A stretch of 11,938 nt of DNA, from contig JBDRKI010000088.1 in the NCBI GenBank assembly GCA_043814095.1, positions 1 to 11,938 on the forward strand, written 5' to 3'. Positions 3,101 to 11,938 of this stretch are shown here, piece after piece. The position numbers and the translations under genes are program-made. The first letter of the stretch is position 1. Every line of letters begins with the position of its first letter. A model generated the notes under the pieces. The model was not told where the DNA came from. It saw nothing but the letters and a program-made list of their open reading frames with translations, and did not search any database. This DNA comes from Armatimonadota bacterium (lineage in GTDB: Bacteria > Vulcanimicrobiota > JACPDS01 > JBDRKI01).

Positions 3101-3134
3101 AAAAAAGAGAGCCCCCTTTGAAAGGAGGCTCTCT
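3101..3134 (-). terminator. Rho-independent terminator of groES-groEL
   Basis: Minus strand AGAGAGCCTCCTT-TCA-AAGGGGGCTCTCT followed by a U-tract, 19 nt after the groEL stop. The single imperfect pair is G-U only on the minus-strand RNA. Confidence 0.9.
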
Positions 3135-3153
3135 AAATCCCGTAAGATTTAAC

Positions 3154-4806
<1,653 letters not shown>

Positions 4807-4812
4807 CTAAAA

Positions 4813-5127
4813 TTATTTTGTAATTATGCCGAAAAGTTCGTTTTCTCTTACGATAAGATAATCTTCGCCGTTAAGTTTTATCTCGGTGCCGGAGTATTTT
4901 CCGTAAAGAACGGTATCGCCTGTTTTAACTTCCATAGGAACTTTCTGACCGTTTTCCAGGATTTTTCCGGTGCCTACGGCTACAATTTTACCTTCCTGGG
5001 GTTTTTCTTTCACGCTGTCGGGAAGTATTACTCCCCCTCTTGTTACTTCTTCTGTTGGCAGAGGTTTTATAACTACTCTGTCACCCAGGGGTTTCAACTG
5101 GACATTTTTTTCTGTTTTTGTTGCCAT
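4813..5127 (-). CDS. groS: Co-chaperonin GroES (Cpn10)
   Basis: 104 aa with LKPLGDRVV, the mobile loop [21 protein letters not shown] and [17 protein letters not shown] is present; the gene lies directly upstream of groEL. Confidence 0.99.
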
Positions 5128-5184: not shown

Positions 5185-5211
5185 TTAGCACTCTCGTCCG
5201 CAGAGTGCTAA
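5185..5211. promoter_or_regulatory. CIRCE element (HrcA operator)
   Basis: Exact consensus TTAGCACTC-N9(tcgtccgca)-GAGTGCTAA, located between the groES promoter and start codon. Confidence 0.98.
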
Positions 5212-5249: not shown

Positions 5250-5290
5250 GTGCATTTACATATATATAAAGGCTTTCATAAGGGAGGAAA

Positions 5291-5331
5291 TGTTAACAAA
5301 ATGTTAACAAATTATTAACAAATTGTTAACA
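5291..5331. promoter_or_regulatory. Four phased T(G/A)TTAACA boxes at 11-bp period; probable OmpR/PhoB-family (Pho-box-like) operator
   Basis: TGTTAACA at 5291, 5302 and 5324 and TATTAACA at 5313. This is TTAACA x4 with 5-nt spacers, immediately upstream of the predicted plus-strand promoter. Confidence 0.7.
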
Positions 5332-5333
5332 TC

Positions 5334-5362
5334 TTAAAATCAATTTAAGGATAAAATATAAT
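5334..5362 (+). promoter_or_regulatory. Probable sigma70-type promoter of the caspase operon (weak -35, perfect -10)
   Basis: TTAAAA (5334-5339), 17 nt, TATAAT (5357-5362). SD GGAGG at 5400-5404 precedes ATG 5409. Confidence 0.5.
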
Positions 5363-5408
5363 TGAGGGCTTCTATATTGGGGGAAATTTACCGCCCTTTG
5401 GAGGCATT

Positions 5409-8363
5409 ATGACCCATATAACTTCGACCGCAAATATTAATTTTTCGGAACAACAGCCGGCTTTAAATAAAACTCCGGATGCTAAATATATTTCAAGCAT
5501 TGTGGATGAGAAAGCCAAAGAAGGCCCTGTTTTCATAATTGTTGCCGGTATTAATAAATATGATCCGGCTGTTTACGGACCGCCGGAAGATGTAAGCTTA
5601 AATTACTGTGTTAATGACGCAAACAGTTATGACAAGTATTTCAGCGACAGAAAAAAGACAAGCAAACACTGGAAAAATGTAAGGGTTCTTAAATTAACGG
5701 ATGATCAAGCCACAACCGAGAACCTGAAAAAATTATTTAAGGCGGCGGGAGCCAAGAACCCGAGTCTTGTCATGTTTATAAACTCAAGCCACGGCACAAA
5801 TGACGGGACAAGACCCTATTTATGCATGCATGACAGGCCTTACAGTATGGACGAATTGACGCTGGACAGGAACAGGTATTTCGCGGACTCCCAGTTTATA
5901 TCAATACTGGATTCCTGCTACAGCGGCGGGTTTGCCGCGCCTAAAGACGCGGGTCCGGAGGTAAAATCAAGATTCTGGGAATGGAAAGATAAATCAACAG
6001 CCGCTTTTAACGCGGAGAAATTTGTAAAGAATGACAAACTTATACATAAAGGCGATATAGTTATCGCATCATGCAAATTTAACCAGACCAGCATAGAGCT
6101 TCCTTTCTTTCTGGATTTAAAAAAAATGCCTGATAGGAAAAACGGGCACGGACTGTTTTCTGGAAGTTTTTTAAAGGCCGGCCATAATCCAAAATGGGTA
6201 GATAGAGGGTACGGCAATGATGACGGCACTGCGTCCTTTGAAGAAAACTTTGAAGCGGCCCGGCATTATATGCAGGTAATACTGAACACTTTATTTCCTG
6301 ACGGCGGGTTTAAGCAGGATCCTCAGATGCTTGATTCGGATCTTAGTAAAGAGCAGCCCCTTATAGATGTTAAGGAAATAAAAGGGGGCGGGATTCTTAA
6401 TCCTAAGGAATCTAATATAAAAGTGAAACCAAGCAATGTTCTGACAGTTGAGCATAAAGATACACCTTCTTTAAAAGATACCCGTTTTAATTTTCCGGTA
6501 TTAGAACAGACATCCGGCATAAGCACAGTTAAGGAAGATCAATCTTTAAAACATGGCCGTAAATTTGTTCTTGTTATAGGCATAGATGATTACATATATA
6601 ATGTGCCGGATCTCTCATGCTGTGAGAATGACGCAAACGGGATAGTTCAGTGTCTCGGGGACAAATGGGAAGGCGCTGCTGTCACGAGGCTTTTAAGCAG
6701 AAACGCGACAAAAGCCAATATAATGAACTGGTTTGTTTCGTTAAAAGATCAGCTTAAAGCTAATGATCAGGTGTTCATTGCGTATTCCGGCCACGGCACA
6801 AATGACGGGTATAACGGATATTTATGTCCCGCCGACACAAAATCAAACAGCATAAGTTCTCTTATAAGCGGTGATGAGCTTGCCGAGTGGAGAACATGGC
6901 TCGGTCCCGCGGTTGTCTCATATACGATTGACTCATGCTTCTCGGGAAAGATCCCGGAAGATTTTGACAATGTGAAGAAACCCGGTGATTATAAAGTACC
7001 TTCTAATGTAAGGTATCTTCCTATGGAGTTTACCAAATCTAATTTCAACCAGGATTATTTTTACGCGAAACTGCTGTGGAACGCGACAGGCGGATATAGA
7101 AGTTCCGCTCCTACCATTATACTGACGGCTTCAAGCGCCGATCAGTACAGCCAGGAGGACCCTAATCTTAGAGTGGAAGGCCTGCCTTACAGAGGTTACG
7201 GCGCGTTTATGGGCTGGCTCATGAAGGGGCTCGGTGTAGGTGATGCGACCGGATATGCCGATAAAAACCAGGATAAAAATATATCAATGGCTGATGAAGC
7301 ATATAAATGGACATATGAAGCGGTGTCGCAGAAATACAGGGACCAGAATCCCAACGTATTTTATTCCGGCGCTTACGGCGGAGACTGGTATAACTGGTAT
7401 ATAAAAGGGACGGATCCCGATGAGAAGCTAGATTCCACAGGATGGATAAAAGATGCGGGCGTAGGTTCGCCTGCGGTAACTGATACGGCAAAAACCGGGA
7501 AGATAGAAGATAAACCTAAAACCACAGAAGAAGGTAATGTTTTTGTTCTTTCCATAGGTGTTAACAGATATGATTCGTTAAAATATCTCCAGCAGTACGG
7601 GACAATACCCAGCACCTTAAAATATTGTGTTAATGACGCAAGAGGTGTTGCCGGCAAATTCCAGGGCAAGCTGAGTCCTCCGGAAAATATTGCGCTTCTT
7701 GAGGACAATCAGGCCACATGGGCTAATGTTCAGGCTCAGGTTGCGGCCATAAAGCAAAATATGCGTCCCGAGGATAAACTTGTAATATACAGTTCAAGCC
7801 ACGGCACGAATGACGGCAAAGACGGTTATATCTGCCTGTATGACAGGATGGTCAGCGGAACAGAACTCGGAATTTTAAGCGATATAGCGGGGGTTGATAA
7901 TCAAGTAGCCTTTATATTCGACTCCTGCCAGAACGGGGCTTTGATAGGCAAAGGCGCGGACGAGAAAACCGTTATCGGCGAAGGCGCTAAATATTTTAAA
8001 TGGGAAAAGTCAAAAGATAATTTTGTTCAAGCACAGGAGCTTCTTGTAAAGGGGTTGATAAAACCCAATATATTTGTGTTTACATCCTGCAAGGGGGATC
8101 AGTACAGTTCTGAAAGCCCGAGGCTTGAGCACGGATTATTCACCTACGCGCTGCTTCAGGGAATGGATGAGAAGAACTATCTTGATTATATGAAAGACGG
8201 CGATATATCCATGGAAGACCTTGTCAGGTACGCGTCATGGAGGACATATCTTTTAAGCTTAAAGCCGGATTTGCACTCCCAGAATGTCATGCAGTACCCG
8301 CAGAACCCCCAGTATCTGGATAATGATAAAGAAAAAGAATTTGTAGTGAAGGATTTAAAGTAA
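5409..8363 (+). CDS. Triple caspase-family (peptidase C14, metacaspase-like) domain protein
   Basis: Three ~280-aa repeats, each with GIxxY/GVxxY, LxxCxNDA, S(S/G)HGTNDG, DSC, (A/T)S...Q-x-S-x-E, G-x-F and QxP. Catalytic dyads are H128/C170, H462/C510 and H798/C840. No signal peptide or TM segment is visible. Confidence 0.93.
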   Translation: MTHITSTANINFSEQQPALNKTPDAKYISSIVDEKAKEGPVFIIVAGINKYDPAVYGPPEDVSLNYCVNDANSYDKYFSDRKKTSKHWKNVRVLKLTDDQATTENLKKLFKAAGAKNPSLVMFINSSHGTNDGTRPYLCMHDRPYSMDELTLDRNRYFADSQFISILDSCYSGGFAAPKDAGPEVKSRFWEWKDKSTAAFNAEKFVKNDKLIHKGDIVIASCKFNQTSIELPFFLDLKKMPDRKNGHGLFSGSFLKAGHNPKWVDRGYGNDDGTASFEENFEAARHYMQVILNTLFPDGGFKQDPQMLDSDLSKEQPLIDVKEIKGGGILNPKESNIKVKPSNVLTVEHKDTPSLKDTRFNFPVLEQTSGISTVKEDQSLKHGRKFVLVIGIDDYIYNVPDLSCCENDANGIVQCLGDKWEGAAVTRLLSRNATKANIMNWFVSLKDQLKANDQVFIAYSGHGTNDGYNGYLCPADTKSNSISSLISGDELAEWRTWLGPAVVSYTIDSCFSGKIPEDFDNVKKPGDYKVPSNVRYLPMEFTKSNFNQDYFYAKLLWNATGGYRSSAPTIILTASSADQYSQEDPNLRVEGLPYRGYGAFMGWLMKGLGVGDATGYADKNQDKNISMADEAYKWTYEAVSQKYRDQNPNVFYSGAYGGDWYNWYIKGTDPDEKLDSTGWIKDAGVGSPAVTDTAKTGKIEDKPKTTEEGNVFVLSIGVNRYDSLKYLQQYGTIPSTLKYCVNDARGVAGKFQGKLSPPENIALLEDNQATWANVQAQVAAIKQNMRPEDKLVIYSSSHGTNDGKDGYICLYDRMVSGTELGILSDIAGVDNQVAFIFDSCQNGALIGKGADEKTVIGEGAKYFKWEKSKDNFVQAQELLVKGLIKPNIFVFTSCKGDQYSSESPRLEHGLFTYALLQGMDEKNYLDYMKDGDISMEDLVRYASWRTYLLSLKPDLHSQNVMQYPQNPQYLDNDKEKEFVVKDLK

Positions 8364-8379
8364 AAGGAGACTTTGTATT

Positions 8380-10041
8380 ATGAAAATAGATAAAATTGCT
8401 CCTTATTTAAGCCAGTCATCAGGCAAGGATTTTGATCTTGAAGTTTTCAATCCTTCTTCTTCCGAAACAAGGCTTAAAGACGGCAGGGAGATACTTTATA
8501 ATATCGTAGATGTTGAAGGAATATACGCTGCCGGCAAATTTAAAGAAAAAGTTAATGAACTTCTTAATGAACTTAACGATCTGGATACAGAGAAAGCCTT
8601 AAATGCGGCATCGGAGTTAAGAGAACTTTTTTCTTATGATATTAATTTAAATGATGAGAATTTTAAAACAGTTAAAGAAGCGATGATTTTAATAGTAAAC
8701 GGATTTTTGCTTAATAAAAATAAAGACGATAAACTCAGGGCAAGATTGGTCCTTGTGCTCGGCAAAATAGCCCATCTTATTACCAAGAAACTGGATGATC
8801 AGAACCCGCTTGTGCGCGAAAAAACGATAAAAATGTTTAACTCAATAATATGGGTTTTTTCCTGCATATTAAAAGATGATGAAGAGTTGTCTATGGTAAA
8901 AAGCAATACGACTAAAGCCCTGGATTATATGTGTTTATCATCCATCCCCAAACTTATAGACACTATGAGCGATGAAAACGAACAGGTTAAAATCAATGCG
9001 AAAGTAGTAGTAAGCAACATAATTACCGCTCTTGTTAAAATAATTAAATCCAAACAAAGAACCGAGAGCATGCAGGAAAATGTTGTCAGTGTATTAAGCA
9101 GGATCGGTATCGCGGCGGTGCCGGAGCTTTCACAGCTTCTTTCAAGCAGGGACAAAGAAACCTGCATAACGGCCGCTCGTGTTATTAGAAATATCGGATG
9201 GAAAGCCCAAGGAGCCATTCCCGAGCTTATAAACGCGCTGGAGAATAGAGATGAGGAAATACGGGAAGCTGTTATTGACGCCCTGGTTAATATAGGGCAG
9301 GCAACGGCCGTTGCGGTTATTGAAAGGCTTGATAAAGACGAAACCTGCTATCCTAGAAATCTGCTTATCGCAAAAGGTATGATTGATGTATTGAGAAAAA
9401 TAGGCAAAAAAGACTACGCTCAAAACATTAAAGGAGAAGCATCGCGCGCCGTTGCAAATTTTTTGTGGCATTGCATGAAAAATCAGACAAAAGACGGCAC
9501 TTTAATGGGTCAGTACAGAGAGCTTATGCGTTTATCTGCGGAACTGCTGGGAGGATGGGAGTCTTCTGCCGGCTCAGCATACAACACCCTTGAGAATATA
9601 TTTAAAGTTGACAAAAAGGATAAAGAAGGTAATAAAAATCTAAATATTAATGCAGAACTGGTTAATTTTACGCCAGTACTTGACGCGGCGGCTTGCGCGA
9701 TGGTTAAGATAAATCAGCATGAAGCTGTTAAATACTTTCTCAATAATAAGGATACTGAGAAACTTATAAAAGAAGACAGCAAAAAACTTCACGCCGTGGT
9801 ATTCGCATTTGGGGAAGTAAAATCCCCGCCGCTCGAGGTAGTTAATTATCTTATAAAAGCGCTGGATGCCCAAGAATATTTTACGCGCAAAACAGCGGTT
9901 CAATCTTTAGGCAAACTGGGTTCTTCGGCAAAAACGGCCTTGCCCGCATTGAAAGAGCTGTATGACGGCAGATATAAGAATCACGATGACATGAAAGATA
10001 CAATTAAAATTGCGATAGGGAGTATTAAAAATAACAGGTAA
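8380..10041 (+). CDS. HEAT-repeat (PBS lyase HEAT-like) alpha-solenoid protein
   Basis: Repeated units such as AVPELSQLLSSRDKETCITAARVIRNIG, AIPELINALENRDEEIREAVIDALVNIG and LIKALDAQEYFTRKTAVQSLGKLGSSAKTALPAL. It starts 16 nt after the upstream stop, with SD AAGGAG. Confidence 0.88.
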   Translation: MKIDKIAPYLSQSSGKDFDLEVFNPSSSETRLKDGREILYNIVDVEGIYAAGKFKEKVNELLNELNDLDTEKALNAASELRELFSYDINLNDENFKTVKEAMILIVNGFLLNKNKDDKLRARLVLVLGKIAHLITKKLDDQNPLVREKTIKMFNSIIWVFSCILKDDEELSMVKSNTTKALDYMCLSSIPKLIDTMSDENEQVKINAKVVVSNIITALVKIIKSKQRTESMQENVVSVLSRIGIAAVPELSQLLSSRDKETCITAARVIRNIGWKAQGAIPELINALENRDEEIREAVIDALVNIGQATAVAVIERLDKDETCYPRNLLIAKGMIDVLRKIGKKDYAQNIKGEASRAVANFLWHCMKNQTKDGTLMGQYRELMRLSAELLGGWESSAGSAYNTLENIFKVDKKDKEGNKNLNINAELVNFTPVLDAAACAMVKINQHEAVKYFLNNKDTEKLIKEDSKKLHAVVFAFGEVKSPPLEVVNYLIKALDAQEYFTRKTAVQSLGKLGSSAKTALPALKELYDGRYKNHDDMKDTIKIAIGSIKNNR

Positions 10042-10062
10042 TCTTTTTTTTGGGGGGTATTT

Positions 10063-11802
10063 ATGGAGTATAAAATAAATCCGGTTTATGCGAAAATTAA
10101 TTATACTGCCGATACTTCCTATTTGAGCTATACGGAAGCTTTATCCTCTAAAGCCGATCAAATAGAGAAACTCAGTTTAAGCAAACAGTTTGATATCGCT
10201 GAAATGAAATTAAAAAATTATCCAAACCGGCCCAGGAAGTTTTGCCTTTTTATAGGCGTGGGCGATTATGATCACTGGGGGGTTGCAGATTTAAAATTCG
10301 CGAGAAAAGACGCCAAGGATATCTACAATTGTTTTCATTATAATAAAGAAGACATAGCTTTTATTTTAACCGATAGGAACGCGAGCAAGGAAAACATAGA
10401 AAAAGTTATGGAATTTATAAAAAAGAACAGTAGGGATCCCAGAAACGACATTAAGATATACTTTTCCGGCCACGGCACAAAAGAAAAGAATATCGCTAAA
10501 GATGAACTTAAAAGGCGCGCGTATCTTGTGCCCTGTGATGGTCTTTTAAATAAATATAACACATTGATAAGCATGCAGTATTTGGTTGATGCGGTTACGT
10601 CAACAAAAGGCAAAAAAAGTGTTTTTCTCGACAGCTGTTTTTCCGGAAGGTTTATAGGAAAAACAACGGCTGTTATTGACGACCTGCTTAAAGCGCCGGA
10701 ACCCGATCCCGAATTAAGCCCGTCAGTGGAGGATTTAAAGGAAAAACTGGAAAGCTCCAGGGAAATTTTCTGGCAGAACGCATCTCGGGGAGACCAGCAG
10801 GCAAGAGAAATTAAAGAATATAAAAACGGCATGTTTACTTACTGCCTTAAAAAAGCTCTGGGGTACGGCACGGAGATGGGCAGGGCGGACAGGGACAGAA
10901 ACAGGATAATTACCGAAGATGAGCTCTTAAGATATCTTGATTACGCGGTTCCCCATGAAACCTATAAATGGATGATAGTAAAAGGGTTTGTGGGCAGGCT
11001 GGAAGACATTTATAAATATTATTTAAAACCCGCTATCAAAAAAATAAAAAGCAAAAGAAATATACCGGAAGGCTGCCGCGCGGAACTGGAATATTATGAC
11101 CGGAGTATTGAAAAGAAAGCGGATAAAAGATATATCATAAAAACGGCTCTGGGTATTGTTATTGACGCGGCATATTATTATGACGATATAAATAAACAAT
11201 ATTTAAAGCCTCTGGTGGACAGGGTAATCGCTAAAGCCGCTGAAATAGGTGTTACAGTACAGACCCCCGTAAGCATAGACAGGTATATAGTTAATGATAA
11301 TGCGCAGAAAGACCTTATCATAAAGGCGGCTCCCGTAATATACGGGTACGATATAAACCAGTATGAGCACCAGGAGGCAATGGATGAAGCTTTTGAAAAA
11401 TTTCACCGCAATAAAGGCCGTGAATTAAGGTCTGTCCGCAGTGAAATAACGGGGGAAGAGCCGGTTGATTACCGGAAAGAATTCAACGATTTTAAAAGAA
11501 AAACCCTGATTTATTATATGGAATTAGGCACAGGGAAGATAGATGAGGTAATGCATGCGGATTTAAATAATGACGGCAAGCTTAATGAAATAGAGATTGC
11601 GATATATATAAAGAAAAAAGCCCAACCTGTTCTTTTAAAATGGATAATCAGAAGATTCTCGGATAATCCCCACAAGAGCTATGAAAATCTTACAAAAAAA
11701 GAAAGAATCACCGCGAAGCAAAGAGCAGACAGGGCAGGCGTTAGCGCCGCGCTTACACAGGATGAAATATTAATGCTTTATTATGAACTGTCTCACTATT
11801 GA
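10063..11802 (+). CDS. Caspase-family (peptidase C14) protein with helical insertion and C-terminal EF-hand module
   Basis: Motifs FIGVGDY, LKFARKDA, YFSGHG (H137), YLVPCD, FLDSCFSG (C192), ASRGDQQARE and NGMFTYCL. EF-hand-like loops at D276-E287 and D500-E511. It starts 21 nt after the HEAT gene stop. Confidence 0.9.
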   Translation: MEYKINPVYAKINYTADTSYLSYTEALSSKADQIEKLSLSKQFDIAEMKLKNYPNRPRKFCLFIGVGDYDHWGVADLKFARKDAKDIYNCFHYNKEDIAFILTDRNASKENIEKVMEFIKKNSRDPRNDIKIYFSGHGTKEKNIAKDELKRRAYLVPCDGLLNKYNTLISMQYLVDAVTSTKGKKSVFLDSCFSGRFIGKTTAVIDDLLKAPEPDPELSPSVEDLKEKLESSREIFWQNASRGDQQAREIKEYKNGMFTYCLKKALGYGTEMGRADRDRNRIITEDELLRYLDYAVPHETYKWMIVKGFVGRLEDIYKYYLKPAIKKIKSKRNIPEGCRAELEYYDRSIEKKADKRYIIKTALGIVIDAAYYYDDINKQYLKPLVDRVIAKAAEIGVTVQTPVSIDRYIVNDNAQKDLIIKAAPVIYGYDINQYEHQEAMDEAFEKFHRNKGRELRSVRSEITGEEPVDYRKEFNDFKRKTLIYYMELGTGKIDEVMHADLNNDGKLNEIEIAIYIKKKAQPVLLKWIIRRFSDNPHKSYENLTKKERITAKQRADRAGVSAALTQDEILMLYYELSHY

Positions 11803-11938
11803 CACTCTCCTGAATAAATTCAAGGAGATTCTCAGGCTACGCTTGCGGCAGTCCGCTGCGTTAGCGCCCGAAGGTTCTGCCCGAACCTAAGAATATTTAT
11901 TGCGGCATTTAAGTCTCTGTCTAATTCTATTCCGCAGA
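11799..11938 (-). mobile_element. Right end of an IS200/IS605-family (tnpB-carrying) element, running off the window
   Basis: Minus strand ...TGA-GAAT-CTCCTTGAATTTATTCAGGAG-AGTG-TCAA. The subterminal hairpin is preceded by GAAT and the end is TCAA (11802-11799), matching the IS608 right-end guide/cleavage tetranucleotides. It follows a tnpB C-terminus. Confidence 0.88.
11832..11938 (-). CDS. tnpB: 3' end of TnpB RNA-guided endonuclease (partial)
   Basis: The frame from 11936 translates as CGIELDRDLNAAINILRFGQNLRALTQRTAASVA*. This gives the last zinc-finger Cys followed by the RuvC-III motif DRDxNAAxNI. It is too short for the ORF track. Confidence 0.92.
   Translation of the reverse strand, partial: CGIELDRDLNAAINILRFGQNLRALTQRTAASVA

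What the first reader, a model, noticed from the sequence alone, without database searches (positions are those of the whole stretch)
5409..11802. Caspase(x3) - HEAT - caspase/EF-hand operon: four intact caspase-like domains and a solenoid protein in one putative transcription unit
Seen: three co-oriented genes separated by 16 and 21 nt with no evident terminator between them. They encode four peptidase C14 domains, all retaining the His-Gly and Asp-Ser-Cys catalytic motifs, on either side of a HEAT-repeat protein. Established: bacterial caspase-like proteases act in regulated proteolysis and defence modules (e.g. gasdermin activation, type III CRISPR-linked protease cascades), usually with a sensor or scaffold domain and a dedicated substrate. 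Inference: this could be an undescribed proteolytic cascade in which the HEAT protein is a scaffold, sensor, inhibitor or substrate. I recognise no gasdermin, NTPase, cyclase or TIR partner in the window, and I do not recognise this architecture as a named system.
Basis: partly seen in the sequence, partly recalled or inferred. Interest (0 to 1): 0.85.

Follow-up and report, generated by a model that had tools for sequence, protein, structure and literature searches.

The report
Cytoplasmic multi-caspase and HEAT-repeat operon
An uncultured bacterium carries a tight three-gene unit encoding four intact caspase-like protease domains and a HEAT-repeat protein; it is real and rare, but looks like a lineage-specific branch of the known bacterial caspase-homologue families rather than a demonstrated new defence cascade.

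Summary
Three co-oriented ORFs (5409-8363, 8380-10041, 10063-11802) lie 16 and 21 nt apart with no terminator-like site between them. They encode three plus one Peptidase_C14 domains, all with the His/Cys dyad, on either side of a HEAT/ARM solenoid.

The cascade or defence reading has no support. PADLOC gives only domain-level hits, and the neighbours are groESL and housekeeping genes. The HEAT protein has no orthologue. The caspase/EF-hand protein has one orthologue and the triple caspase four, and none is visibly co-located with another.

The genome carries seven more caspase genes, all lipoproteins. The two in this operon lack signal peptides, and their domains form their own branch.

The operon sits behind a stereotyped promoter cassette of phased TGTTAACA boxes. 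This cassette occurs at 58 intergenic sites, three of them in front of other caspase loci.

Multi-caspase operons and HEAT-caspase fusions are already in print. My best reading is a cytoplasmic, regulon-controlled, Arg/Lys-type orthocaspase module with a HEAT adaptor, which makes it a new variant of a known kind. The contig ends in an insertion sequence right after the last gene, so any downstream partners are unseen.

The parts
5280..5331 (+). Promoter cassette: an AAGGGAGG motif, then four TTAACA boxes (5293-5298, 5304-5309, 5315-5320, 5326-5331) phased at 11 bp. Each box is the core of a palindromic TGTTAACA.
   Evidence: Sequence read. Genome-wide scans show 58 such arrays, 58 of 58 intergenic, at a median of 70 bp from the nearest gene start. 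The same layout of boxes followed about 20-25 nt later by TATAAT is seen at 25 aligned examples.
5334..5362 (+). Sigma-70-like -35/-10 pair (TTAAAA, 17 nt, TATAAT) directly after the last box
   Evidence: Consensus scan, 10 of 12 matches. This is a consensus match only. No transcript data exist.
5400..5404 (+). GGAGG ribosome-binding site 4 nt before the ATG of gene 1
   Evidence: Sequence read
5409..8363 (+). Gene 1 (P0001, 984 aa): three tandem Peptidase_C14 domains and no signal peptide
   Evidence: It has four orthologues at 45-55% identity.
5520..6308 (+). P0001 caspase-like domain 1 (aa ~38-300), H128/C170. Present only in P0001 and the orthologue P0031.
6555..7403 (+). P0001 caspase-like domain 2 (aa ~383-665), H462/C510. 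Part of the conserved D2-D3 core.
7533..8333 (+). P0001 caspase-like domain 3 (aa ~709-975), H798/C840 (DSCQNG). Part of the conserved D2-D3 core.
8380..10041 (+). Gene 2 (P0002, 553 aa): HEAT/ARM alpha-solenoid, no signal peptide, no orthologue found
10063..11802 (+). Gene 3 (P0003, 579 aa): one Peptidase_C14 domain plus an orphan C-terminal domain, no signal peptide
10234..10962 (+). P0003 caspase-like domain (aa 58-300), H137/C192
10963..11799 (+). P0003 C-terminal domain (aa 301-579). Mostly helical with one beta-hairpin in the AF2 model. Its only relative is P0004.
11560..11595 (+). EF-hand-type loop DLNNDGKLNEIE (aa 500-511)
   Evidence: Pfam EF-hand_1 is below its cut-off in both P0003 and P0004. 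The liganding positions are invariant in the pair.
11799..11938 (.). End of a multi-copy IS200/IS605-family element. It overlaps the stop codon of gene 3 and ends the contig, so it is the boundary of what can be seen and not part of the module.
   Evidence: The 136-nt tail is 97-100% identical at 7 other places in the genome. The repeat starts at TTGACACTC. The internal copy on C23 is followed by TnpB (Cas12f1-like TNB) and Y1_Tnp fragments.

Best explanation
This is a real three-gene unit, most likely co-transcribed, in a deep-branching uncultured bacterium. Earlier scan notes label the organism Armatimonadota, which I did not verify. Its class holds only two genomes in the searchable set.

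The unit encodes the cytoplasmic branch of a lineage-specific expansion of metacaspase/orthocaspase-type C14 peptidases. There are three products:
- a protein with three complete, dyad-bearing caspase-like domains;
- a HEAT/ARM solenoid;
- a fourth caspase-like domain fused to an orphan helical domain that carries one EF-hand-type loop.

Suggested by the sequence and tool results: the gene structure, the domain content, the intact dyads, the lack of export signals and native-like base composition. Also suggested: a shared promoter cassette of four phased TGTTAACA boxes next to a -35/-10 pair, which this operon has in common with 57 other intergenic sites, three of them in front of the exported caspase paralogues.

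Inferred:
- The proteases cleave after Arg/Lys. All four domains keep the Asp of the D-S-C motif and the Asp of the N/K-D-A motif. These line the S1 pocket in metacaspases, a link I recall and did not test.
- The HEAT protein acts as a substrate-recruiting or regulatory scaffold for one or both proteases, by analogy with HEAT_2-Peptidase_C14 fusions in cyanobacterial orthocaspases.
- Calcium may gate the third protein through its EF-hand loop.
- The unit is switched on with the rest of the TGTTAACA promoter class by one unknown DNA-binding regulator. It would carry out regulated intracellular proteolysis (stress, developmental or cell-fate control) and not phage sensing.
For: Operon structure: the gaps are 16 and 21 nt, each with an RBS, and no terminator-like site lies between the genes.

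Domains and dyads. The fold search returns GSU0716, MALT1 and metacaspases.

Cytoplasmic location: neither P0001 nor P0003 has a hydrophobic N-terminus or a lipobox. All 7 of the 7 other caspase paralogues have a signal peptide, a lipobox Cys and a Gly-rich linker. No upstream in-frame start is available in either gene.

Own branch: on a tree of 18 domains, the six operon-type domains (P0001 D1-D3, P0031 D1, P0003, P0004) split from the 12 lipoprotein-type domains with support 0.897.

Native composition: the operon has GC 0.409, against 0.394 +/- 0.02 for genome windows. Its tetranucleotide distance is exceeded by 13% of genome windows.

Shared promoter: there are 58 arrays, all intergenic in a genome that is about 92% coding, and 52 of 57 lie within 200 bp of a gene start. 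Arrays stand in front of 4 of the 6 caspase loci (C88, C28, C36, C9). Caspases are the largest paralogue family among the 67 array-flanked genes.

HEAT-caspase link in print: HEAT_2 is fused to 4 true cyanobacterial orthocaspases (PMC8283722, section 15, passages read). A NACHT-HEAT_PBS x9-metacaspase is reported in Trichodesmium (PMC3501461, section 9 passage). Protein-interaction domains are the commonest partners of prokaryotic metacaspases, in 139 of 671 sequences, and occur in 30 of 217 metacaspase operons (PMC3501461, sections 12 and 13).
Against: Nothing shows that the three products act together.
- P0002 has no orthologue. The best non-self hit is 89 bits at 24% identity, and only generic HEAT hits appear in 41 relatives.
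- P0003-type proteins number two in 5.8 billion clusters.
This suggests the double or triple caspase works without the other two, but the argument is indirect because the contigs themselves could not be read.
- No transcript data exist.
- Both AF2 models are poor, with mean pLDDT about 51.
- The EF-hand is below Pfam's cut-off.
- The promoter class is large and mixed. Among 40 scanned targets, Pfam found metallopeptidases, flagellar rod and hook proteins and glycosyltransferases, and most targets match no family. Co-regulation therefore says little about function.
- The contig ends in an IS element directly after gene 3, so downstream partners such as a sensor or effector cannot be excluded.
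Confidence: 0.45

Rival explanations
1. Anti-phage or abortive-infection protease cascade. One caspase would act as initiator, another as executioner, and the HEAT protein as sensor, inhibitor or substrate. Activation would kill or arrest the infected cell.
For: Four apparently active protease domains sit in one unit beside a repeat protein of the type used as a sensor or scaffold in conflict systems. PADLOC's 'caspase' model matches P0001 (E 5.3e-25) and P0003 (E 1e-9). Downstream genes are hidden by the IS element at the contig end, so a partner could be missing from view.
Against: No named system is matched. PADLOC hits are domain-level only and EACC1-type caspase scores are far below the cut-off. 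The window has no NTPase, cyclase, TIR, SAVED, gasdermin or nuclease gene. The neighbours are groESL and housekeeping genes, not a defence island. Base composition is native. Phage records give no relative and plasmid records give only domain-level hits (7 records, none covering 80% of the query). The promoter is shared with 57 other sites, including flagellar and peptidase genes, which fits a physiological regulon better than a constitutive immune module.
Confidence: 0.12
2. The genes are neighbours without a joint mechanism. They would be three independent products of a lineage-specific gene-family expansion that share a promoter. The HEAT protein would have nothing specific to do with the caspases.
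For: The same genome has 9 caspase genes with 16 domains, spread over 6 loci among unrelated housekeeping genes. It also has at least 8 other HEAT-repeat ORFs elsewhere. P0001-type genes appear to occur without P0003- or P0002-type genes on two longer contigs, an inference from contig lengths. In the tool's own benchmark only 7 of 44 blind-picked neighbours passed a binding test (tool description).
Against: The intergenic gaps of 16 and 21 nt have no promoter- or terminator-like break. The two caspase genes belong to one branch distinct from the other paralogues. HEAT-caspase fusions exist elsewhere (PMC8283722, PMC3501461), which is the classical sign of a functional link.
Confidence: 0.25
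3. The products are exported by a route that needs no Sec signal, for example a flagellar-type export apparatus. They would act outside the cell together with the lipoprotein caspases and metallopeptidases of the same promoter class.
For: P0001 and P0003, and many other genes behind TGTTAACA arrays, start with polar N/S/T/Q-rich segments without a hydrophobic core. The same promoter class includes flagellar rod, hook and FliK-type genes and several secreted-type peptidases. In other members of the phylum, caspase domains are fused to extracellular-type modules such as FG-GAP, TIG and CARDB.
Against: No export signal or apparatus was tested or identified. HEAT solenoids and EF-hand domains are typically intracellular, which is general knowledge and not a test. 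The resemblance of the N-termini is a visual impression only.
Confidence: 0.08

Closest known systems
Prokaryotic multi-metacaspase operons and metacaspases with protein-interaction partners (Asplund-Samuelsson et al. 2012, PMC3501461; sections 8, 12 and 13 read)
   Same: Several Peptidase_C14 genes lie in one predicted operon. The paper reports 20 of 217 operons with more than one, up to three. Repeat or scaffold domains are the commonest fused or neighbouring partners. The H/C dyad is mostly intact and the function is unknown.
   Different: Here three of the four C14 domains are fused in tandem in one polypeptide. The lineage is outside the four groups listed there for multi-metacaspase operons. 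The partner is a separate HEAT protein. The fourth caspase carries an orphan EF-hand-bearing domain.
Cyanobacterial orthocaspases with HEAT_2/HEAT_PBS accessory domains (the 'Type V' architecture of PMC8283722, section 15; the NACHT-HEAT_PBS x9-metacaspase of Trichodesmium in PMC3501461)
   Same: A C14 peptidase with an intact dyad is combined with a HEAT solenoid, which those authors interpret as a scaffold.
   Different: Those are single fused polypeptides, some with a NACHT NTPase. Here HEAT is a separate gene and no NTPase is present. No sequence orthology was found.
EACC1-caspase two-gene conflict system (Kaur et al. 2020, PMC7159879, section 33 passages read)
   Same: The caspase-domain protein has variable C-terminal domains. 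NCBIfam's EACC1-associated caspase model is the best NCBIfam hit for both caspase proteins.
   Different: The defining 5' gene for the single-TM EACC1 protein is absent. The region upstream of gene 1 is promoter and then divergent groES. Scores are 63.5 and 41.2 bits against a cut-off of 140.
Separase and Raptor of eukaryotes (recalled from general knowledge, not tested here)
   Same: A caspase-fold module, tandem in separase, works with a HEAT/ARM solenoid as a regulated intracellular protease or scaffold. Pfam Raptor_N gave sub-threshold hits to two paralogues in this genome.
   Different: This is an analogy of architecture only, with no detectable homology beyond the clan CD fold. In separase one of the two caspase-like modules is inactive, whereas here all are intact.
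GSU0716 of Geobacter sulfurreducens (PDB 3bij), metacaspases (Yca1, TbMCA2, AtMC4/9) and MALT1 paracaspase
   Same: These are the best structural and sequence matches to the caspase-like domains. They share the D-x-C and H-G motifs.
   Different: Sequence identity is 12-24% in the Foldseek alignments. They are single-domain enzymes, and none is encoded next to a HEAT protein as far as these calls show.

Membership tests
Peptidase family C14 (caspase/metacaspase/orthocaspase, clan CD) | Match to Pfam PF00656 above the gathering score | tested here: met
   P0001 scores 132.8 bits in 3 stretches and P0003 scores 55.8 bits, against a cut-off of 21.4. A whole-genome scan also finds the window's domains.
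Peptidase family C14 (caspase/metacaspase/orthocaspase, clan CD) | Catalytic His-Cys dyad in the conserved H-G and D-x-C motifs | tested here: met
   H128/C170, H462/C510, H798/C840 and H137/C192. Genome-wide, 13 of 16 C14 domains keep the dyad, and all four in the window do.
Peptidase family C14 (caspase/metacaspase/orthocaspase, clan CD) | Caspase-hemoglobinase fold | tested here: met
   Foldseek top hits are 3bij (E 8e-8), MALT1, AtMC9, Yca1 and TbMCA2. The model has mean pLDDT 51, and only the p20-like halves are confident.
Orthocaspase/metacaspase type (Arg/Lys-specific) | Acidic S1-pocket residues: the Asp two residues before the catalytic Cys, and the Asp of the N-D-A motif after strand 1 | tested here: met
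   D168, D508, D838 and D190 precede the Cys. NDA or KDA is present in all four domains. That these residues set P1 specificity is recalled from metacaspase structures and was not tested.
Orthocaspase/metacaspase type (Arg/Lys-specific) | Cleavage after basic residues; autoprocessing | not testable with these tools
   Needs enzyme assays.
EACC1-caspase conflict system | A 5' gene encoding the single-TM EACC1 protein, and a caspase scoring above NF047832's cut-off | tested here: not met
   No ORF lies between groES and gene 1. Scores are 63.5 and 41.2 bits against a cut-off of 140.
Gasdermin-protease, CBASS/type III CRISPR SAVED-CHAT or Craspase-type protease systems | An adjacent gasdermin, cyclase/SAVED, CHAT or Cas genes | tested here: not met
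   Pfam and PADLOC scans of all 8 window ORFs show none. The region downstream of gene 3 is not visible because the contig ends in an IS element.
HEAT-repeat proteins (Pfam clan TPR/ARM-like solenoids) | Matches to HEAT_2, HEAT or Arm above the gathering scores | tested here: met
   HEAT_2 scores 85.2 bits (cut-off 27.7), Arm 52.2, HEAT 43.8 and HEAT_PBS 44.2.
Phycobilin lyase / NblB HEAT proteins | NCBIfam equivalog score above the cut-off | tested here: not met
   CpcE scores 38.5 against 330, and NblB 30.7 against 300.
EF-hand calcium-binding domain | Pfam EF-hand match above the cut-off; a canonical 12-residue loop between two helices | tested here: inconclusive
   Scores are 18.2 bits (P0003) and 16.5 bits (P0004) against a cut-off of 25.4. 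Loop positions 1, 3, 5, 6 and 12 (D, N, D, G, E) are invariant in both. The AF2 model places helices on both sides, at 470-490 and 509-532.

The most novel reading that the evidence does not exclude
The three products assemble into one cytoplasmic, calcium-gated multi-caspase machine on a HEAT solenoid. This would be a bacterial counterpart, by architecture, of separase- or Raptor-like HEAT-plus-caspase-fold assemblies. The tandem domains would act as built-in pseudo-dimers or successive steps of an intramolecular cascade. The whole would be switched on by the master regulator of the 58-site TGTTAACA promoter class, as part of a developmental or cell-fate programme that also deploys the exported caspase lipoproteins.
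Probability: 0.1. Interest if true: 0.7.

Novelty: new variant of a known kind. Interest (0 to 1): 0.36.

Why it matters
Bacterial caspase homologues are abundant, yet almost none has a known substrate, partner or trigger. This locus offers a compact test case: four apparently active domains, a candidate adaptor, a candidate calcium switch and a recognisable promoter element shared with the exported paralogues. If the HEAT protein binds and directs one of the proteases, that would give experimental footing to the scaffold role assumed for HEAT, WD40 and TPR partners of orthocaspases. If the TGTTAACA promoter class turns out to be a regulon, it would tie caspase homologues to a defined regulatory programme in a barely sampled bacterial class. 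As it stands the locus is a near-singleton with no evidence of conservation, which limits how far anything learned from it can be generalised.

Tried and rejected
- **Synteny in relatives.** P0002 in 41 relatives gave only generic HEAT hits; 14 of 41 genomes matched, the best non-self at 38 bits. P0003 in 401 phylum genomes matched 23 of 401, and every hit outside G000 covers only query residues up to 319, the caspase domain. The P0001-family profile in the same 401 genomes matched 25 of 401 at E <= 1e-10, none beyond a single caspase unit, with the best at 121 bits against 1317 for self. The class holds only 2 genomes, and the other one (75% complete) has no match.
- **Public collections.** Genome contigs gave no confirmed relative for either the P0003 or the P0001 alignment. 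Metagenome contigs gave 11 loci, all caspase-domain-only. Viral contigs gave 1 domain-level hit.
- **Orthologue contigs.** Only their lengths are known.
- **C-terminal domain of P0003.** The exhaustive HMMER search found only P0004, plus two weak partial hits: a PPC-repeat protein at E 1e-6 over 64 residues, and a protein with no Pfam family at E 4.5e-4. The Atlas search scored at most 0.79 by features and at most TM 0.32 by structure, so it gave no lead.
- **Structure.** The AF2 model of P0003 (2-row alignment) has pLDDT 50.8, and that of P0001 (5 rows) has pLDDT 51.0 and pTM 0.34. Inter-domain packing cannot be read from either.
- **Complex prediction**, full-length P0003 with P0002 residues 133-553: no verdict.
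- **Sequencing runs.** No RNA holder is listed. One DNA run (coded X1, labelled groundwater metagenome) holds 6% of the sampled words. When laid, it shows short contigs identical to scattered parts of the window, plus other organisms' groEL. This is the same organism at low depth, possibly the source sample, and it says nothing about synteny or expression.
- **Rfam** on the window: no family at the gathering score.
- **PDB sequence search** with P0001: only 3bij, at E 0.009.
- **Literature.** Searches for orthocaspase + HEAT repeat, caspase + Armatimonadota, Peptidase_C14 + HEAT + bacteria, and metacaspase + tandem + two caspase domains found no description of this operon or of a triple-C14 protein. 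Supplementary tables of PMC3501461 (Dataset S1, Table S2), which list all architectures and operons, could not be seen and may contain tandem-C14 cases.
- **Horizontal transfer.** Considered and dropped on composition.


Full report
**1. What is there**

The window is a whole contig (G000:C88, 11,938 bp) of a 2.5-Mb, 129-contig genome rated 99% complete. On the + strand lie three ORFs: 5409-8363 (P0001, 984 aa), 8380-10041 (P0002, 553 aa) and 10063-11802 (P0003, 579 aa). The gaps are 16 and 21 nt, each with a purine-rich RBS-like stretch. No + strand terminator-like site lies between the genes.

Pfam gives the following:
- P0001: Peptidase_C14 at E 2.1e-38 in three stretches.
- P0002: HEAT_2 (E 3.8e-24), Arm, HEAT and HEAT_PBS.
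- P0003: Peptidase_C14 (E 7e-15, aa 58-268) and a sub-threshold EF-hand_1 (E 1.7e-3, 18.2 bits against a cut-off of 25.4).

A Foldseek search with the AF2 model of P0001 returns bacterial GSU0716 (3bij), MALT1 and metacaspases as top hits. That model has mean pLDDT 51, and only the p20-like halves are confident.

**2. Surroundings**

Upstream and divergent are groES (4813-5127) and groEL (3154-4797). A perfect TTAGCACTC-N9-GAGTGCTAA inverted repeat sits at 5185-5211, which I recognise from memory as the CIRCE operator. Further upstream are an MBL-fold hydrolase, a FecR-domain protein and a Ham1 NTPase.

Downstream, the contig stops 136 nt after the stop codon of gene 3. That tail is 97-100% identical to 7 other places in the genome. 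It starts at TTGACACTC, overlapping the TGA stop. In an internal copy it is followed by TnpB (Cas12f1-like TNB) and Y1 transposase fragments, so it is the end of an IS200/IS605-family element. Whatever follows gene 3 in the chromosome is therefore unseen.

Base composition of the operon is native. GC is 0.409, against 0.394 +/- 0.02 for genome windows, and 13% of genome windows have a larger tetranucleotide distance.

**3. The genome has a caspase expansion, and this operon is its cytoplasmic branch**

A phmmer scan of all ORFs finds nine caspase genes at six loci (Pfam-confirmed). They are the two here, C36 (654 aa, 2 domains), C37 (617 aa, 2), C75 (324, 601 and 352 aa; 1, 2 and 1 domains), C28 (911 aa, 3) and C9 (322 aa, 1). 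That makes 16 domains, of which 13 keep both His and Cys. The exceptions are C28 D1 (His to Tyr), C28 D2 (both lost) and C9 (His to Gln).

All 7 of the 7 other paralogues start with a hydrophobic signal sequence, a lipobox Cys and a Gly-rich linker. P0001 and P0003 have neither, and no in-frame upstream start exists. The other loci sit next to uvrA, EF-G, EF-P, ptsI and similar genes, not in defence islands.

On a FastTree of 18 domains, the six operon-type domains (P0001 D1-D3, P0031 D1, P0003, P0004) split from the 12 lipoprotein-type domains with support 0.897. P0001 D1-D3 group together at 0.907. In other members of the phylum, caspase domains are fused to FG-GAP, TIG, CARDB and similar extracellular-type modules.

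**4. Distribution**

- P0003: in 5.8 billion protein clusters it has one orthologue. This is P0004, 44% identical over 94% of the query, 581 aa, on a 4.7-kb contig. The only other hit is a caspase-ankyrin protein that matches the caspase domain alone.
- C-terminal 280 residues of P0003: in an exhaustive HMMER search of 1.84 billion representatives they find only P0004 and two weak partial hits. The Atlas search gave no lead.
- P0002: no orthologue. It has 24 hits at E <= 1e-3 among 7,999 scored candidates, the best non-self at 89 bits and 24% identity, all generic HEAT proteins.
- P0001: four orthologues (P0031-P0034, 45-55% identity), and the next best hit scores only 58 bits. P0031 has all three domains. 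P0033 and P0034 have only domains 2 and 3 behind unrelated N-terminal regions, and P0032 (699 aa on a 2.2-kb contig) likewise shows only that part, so the D2-D3 pair is the conserved core.
- Contigs of the orthologues: 3.0, 2.2, 9.2 and 97.4 kb. None of the P0003 or P0002 hits has a matching contig length. This suggests that, at least on the 9.2-kb and 97.4-kb contigs, the double caspase is not accompanied by the other two genes. The contigs could not be read, so the argument is indirect.
- Genomes of relatives: no orthologue of any of the three was found in 401 phylum genomes, in 41 relatives for P0002, or in the only other genome of the class.
- P0001 and P0003 in other collections: no orthologue in the species-representative contig collection or in JGI metagenome contigs beyond domain hits.
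- Mobile-element collections: viral contigs searched with the P0001 alignment and plasmids searched with P0003 gave only domain-level hits, and phages searched with P0001 gave none.

**5. Regulation**

Between groES and gene 1 lie four TTAACA boxes at an exact 11-bp phase (5293-5331). An AAGGGAGG motif precedes them, and a TTAAAA-17-TATAAT pair follows at 5334-5362.

I scanned the whole genome and found 58 arrays of three or more boxes with at most one mismatch. All 58 are intergenic in a genome that is about 92% coding. Their median distance to the nearest gene start is 70 bp, and 52 of 57 lie within 200 bp. The layout is stereotyped in the 25 examples I aligned, often with the same AAGGG motif upstream.

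Arrays stand in front of 4 of the 6 caspase loci: this operon, C28, C36 and C9. Caspases are the largest paralogue family among the 67 array-flanked genes. Of 40 other targets scanned with Pfam, most match no family. The hits include Met-zincin, M16, M90 and ATLF-like zincin peptidases, flagellar rod, hook and FliK proteins, and glycosyltransferases.

The closest relative (G001) has 15 pattern hits against 0-1 for the control pattern. In G010, a different family of the phylum, a caspase gene is also preceded by phased GTTAA(A/C) boxes. This operon therefore shares a promoter class, and probably a regulator, with the exported caspases. The class is too mixed to name a function.

**6. Mechanism**

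Suggested by the sequence and tool results:
- one probable transcription unit;
- four domains with intact dyads;
- no export signal;
- a separate HEAT solenoid;
- an orphan helical domain with a canonical EF-hand loop (DLNNDGKLNEIE, with liganding positions invariant in P0004).

Inferred:
- Arg/Lys specificity, from the Asp of D-S-C and of N/K-D-A. The link to the S1 pocket is recalled from metacaspase structures.
- HEAT as scaffold or adaptor, from HEAT_2-C14 fusions in four cyanobacterial orthocaspases (PMC8283722 section 15), the NACHT-HEAT_PBS-metacaspase of Trichodesmium, and the general prevalence of protein-interaction partners (PMC3501461 sections 8, 9, 12 and 13).
- Calcium gating of P0003.
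- Possible autoprocessing in the Lys-rich inter-domain linkers of P0001.

None of these was testable here. The complex prediction gave no verdict, and neither model shows inter-domain packing.

**7. Comparison with known systems**

The proteins are members of family C14 on every tested criterion. The locus is not an EACC1-caspase system: the 5' TM gene is absent and the scores are far below the cut-off (PMC7159879 section 33). It is not a gasdermin, CBASS or type III CRISPR protease system either, as no such partners are in the window.

Multi-metacaspase operons (20 of 217, up to three genes) and metacaspase operons with protein-interaction neighbours (30 of 217) were catalogued in 2012 (PMC3501461 section 13). 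New here are three things. Three dyad-bearing C14 domains sit in one cytoplasmic polypeptide, with a conserved D2-D3 core. They are combined with a separate HEAT gene and a caspase/EF-hand gene of an orphan family. The unit is tied to a recognisable promoter class in a barely sampled class of bacteria. My literature searches found no description of this.

**8. Verdict**

My best reading, at about 0.45, is a cytoplasmic, regulon-controlled orthocaspase module with a HEAT adaptor. The rivals are unrelated neighbours (0.25), a defence cascade (0.12) and non-classical export (0.08). I class it as a new variant of a known kind and score interest at about 0.36.

The phylum label Armatimonadota comes from earlier scan notes and was not verified here.

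Noticed in passing
window 5280-5362, and 57 other intergenic sites of G000 (e.g. C28:1173-1213, C36:49031-49071, C9:4843-4881, C54:15536-15576): A stereotyped promoter cassette: often an AAGGG motif, then 3-5 TGTTAACA boxes phased at 11 bp, then TATAAT about 20-25 nt later. It occurs at 58 sites, all intergenic. It is enriched before caspase genes and also stands before metallopeptidase and flagellar genes and many orphan genes. The closest relative G001 has 15 pattern hits against 0-1 for the control. This is much larger than the three-site set noted earlier in this scan, so it is a large regulon or a promoter class.
   Followed up: partly
window 11799-11938 and 1-140: Both contig ends are multi-copy repeats. 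The tail is the end of an IS200/IS605-family element (TnpB and Y1 fragments follow in the C23 copy), is found at 7 other places, and starts on the stop codon of gene 3. The first ~140 nt recur at 100% identity in 5 other contigs (C94, C119, C79, C29, C70).
   Followed up: partly
window 5185-5211: A perfect TTAGCACTC-N9-GAGTGCTAA inverted repeat lies between a consensus TTGACA-16-TATAAT promoter (5249-5222, minus strand) and groES. This is the CIRCE/HrcA operator layout, recognised from memory.
   Followed up: no
G000 C36:46980-48944, C37:14218-16071, C75:50029-55174, C28:1336-4071, C9:3576-4544: Seven caspase-like lipoproteins have 1-3 C14 domains each, with poly-Gly linkers after the lipobox Cys. 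Three of their 12 domains have lost the His or both catalytic residues (C28 D1, C28 D2, C9). C75 holds three such genes in a row, with an unannotated 281-aa ORF between the first two.
   Followed up: partly
L060 (G010:C49) 3130-3240, minus strand: In another family of the phylum, a 552-aa caspase gene is preceded by phased GTTAA(A/C) boxes. This hints that the link between the array and caspase genes is older than this genome.
   Followed up: partly
L110 (G000:C23:52800-57000) 1680-2024 and 3434-3722: Next to the internal IS copy lie a HepT-like RNase ORF and group II intron D1-D4 RNA matches (RF02001 at 92 bits, RF01998 at 71 bits).
   Followed up: no
P0001 aa 617-630 and aa 930-941; P0003 aa 274-287; every lipoprotein paralogue: Each caspase-like domain ends with an EF-hand- or dockerin-like D-x-(D/N)-x-(D/N)-x-x-(I/V)-(S/T)-x-x-E loop, followed in most by a Q-x-P-Q-x-Y-D-N motif. 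The loop could be a calcium site common to this C14 subfamily.
   Followed up: no
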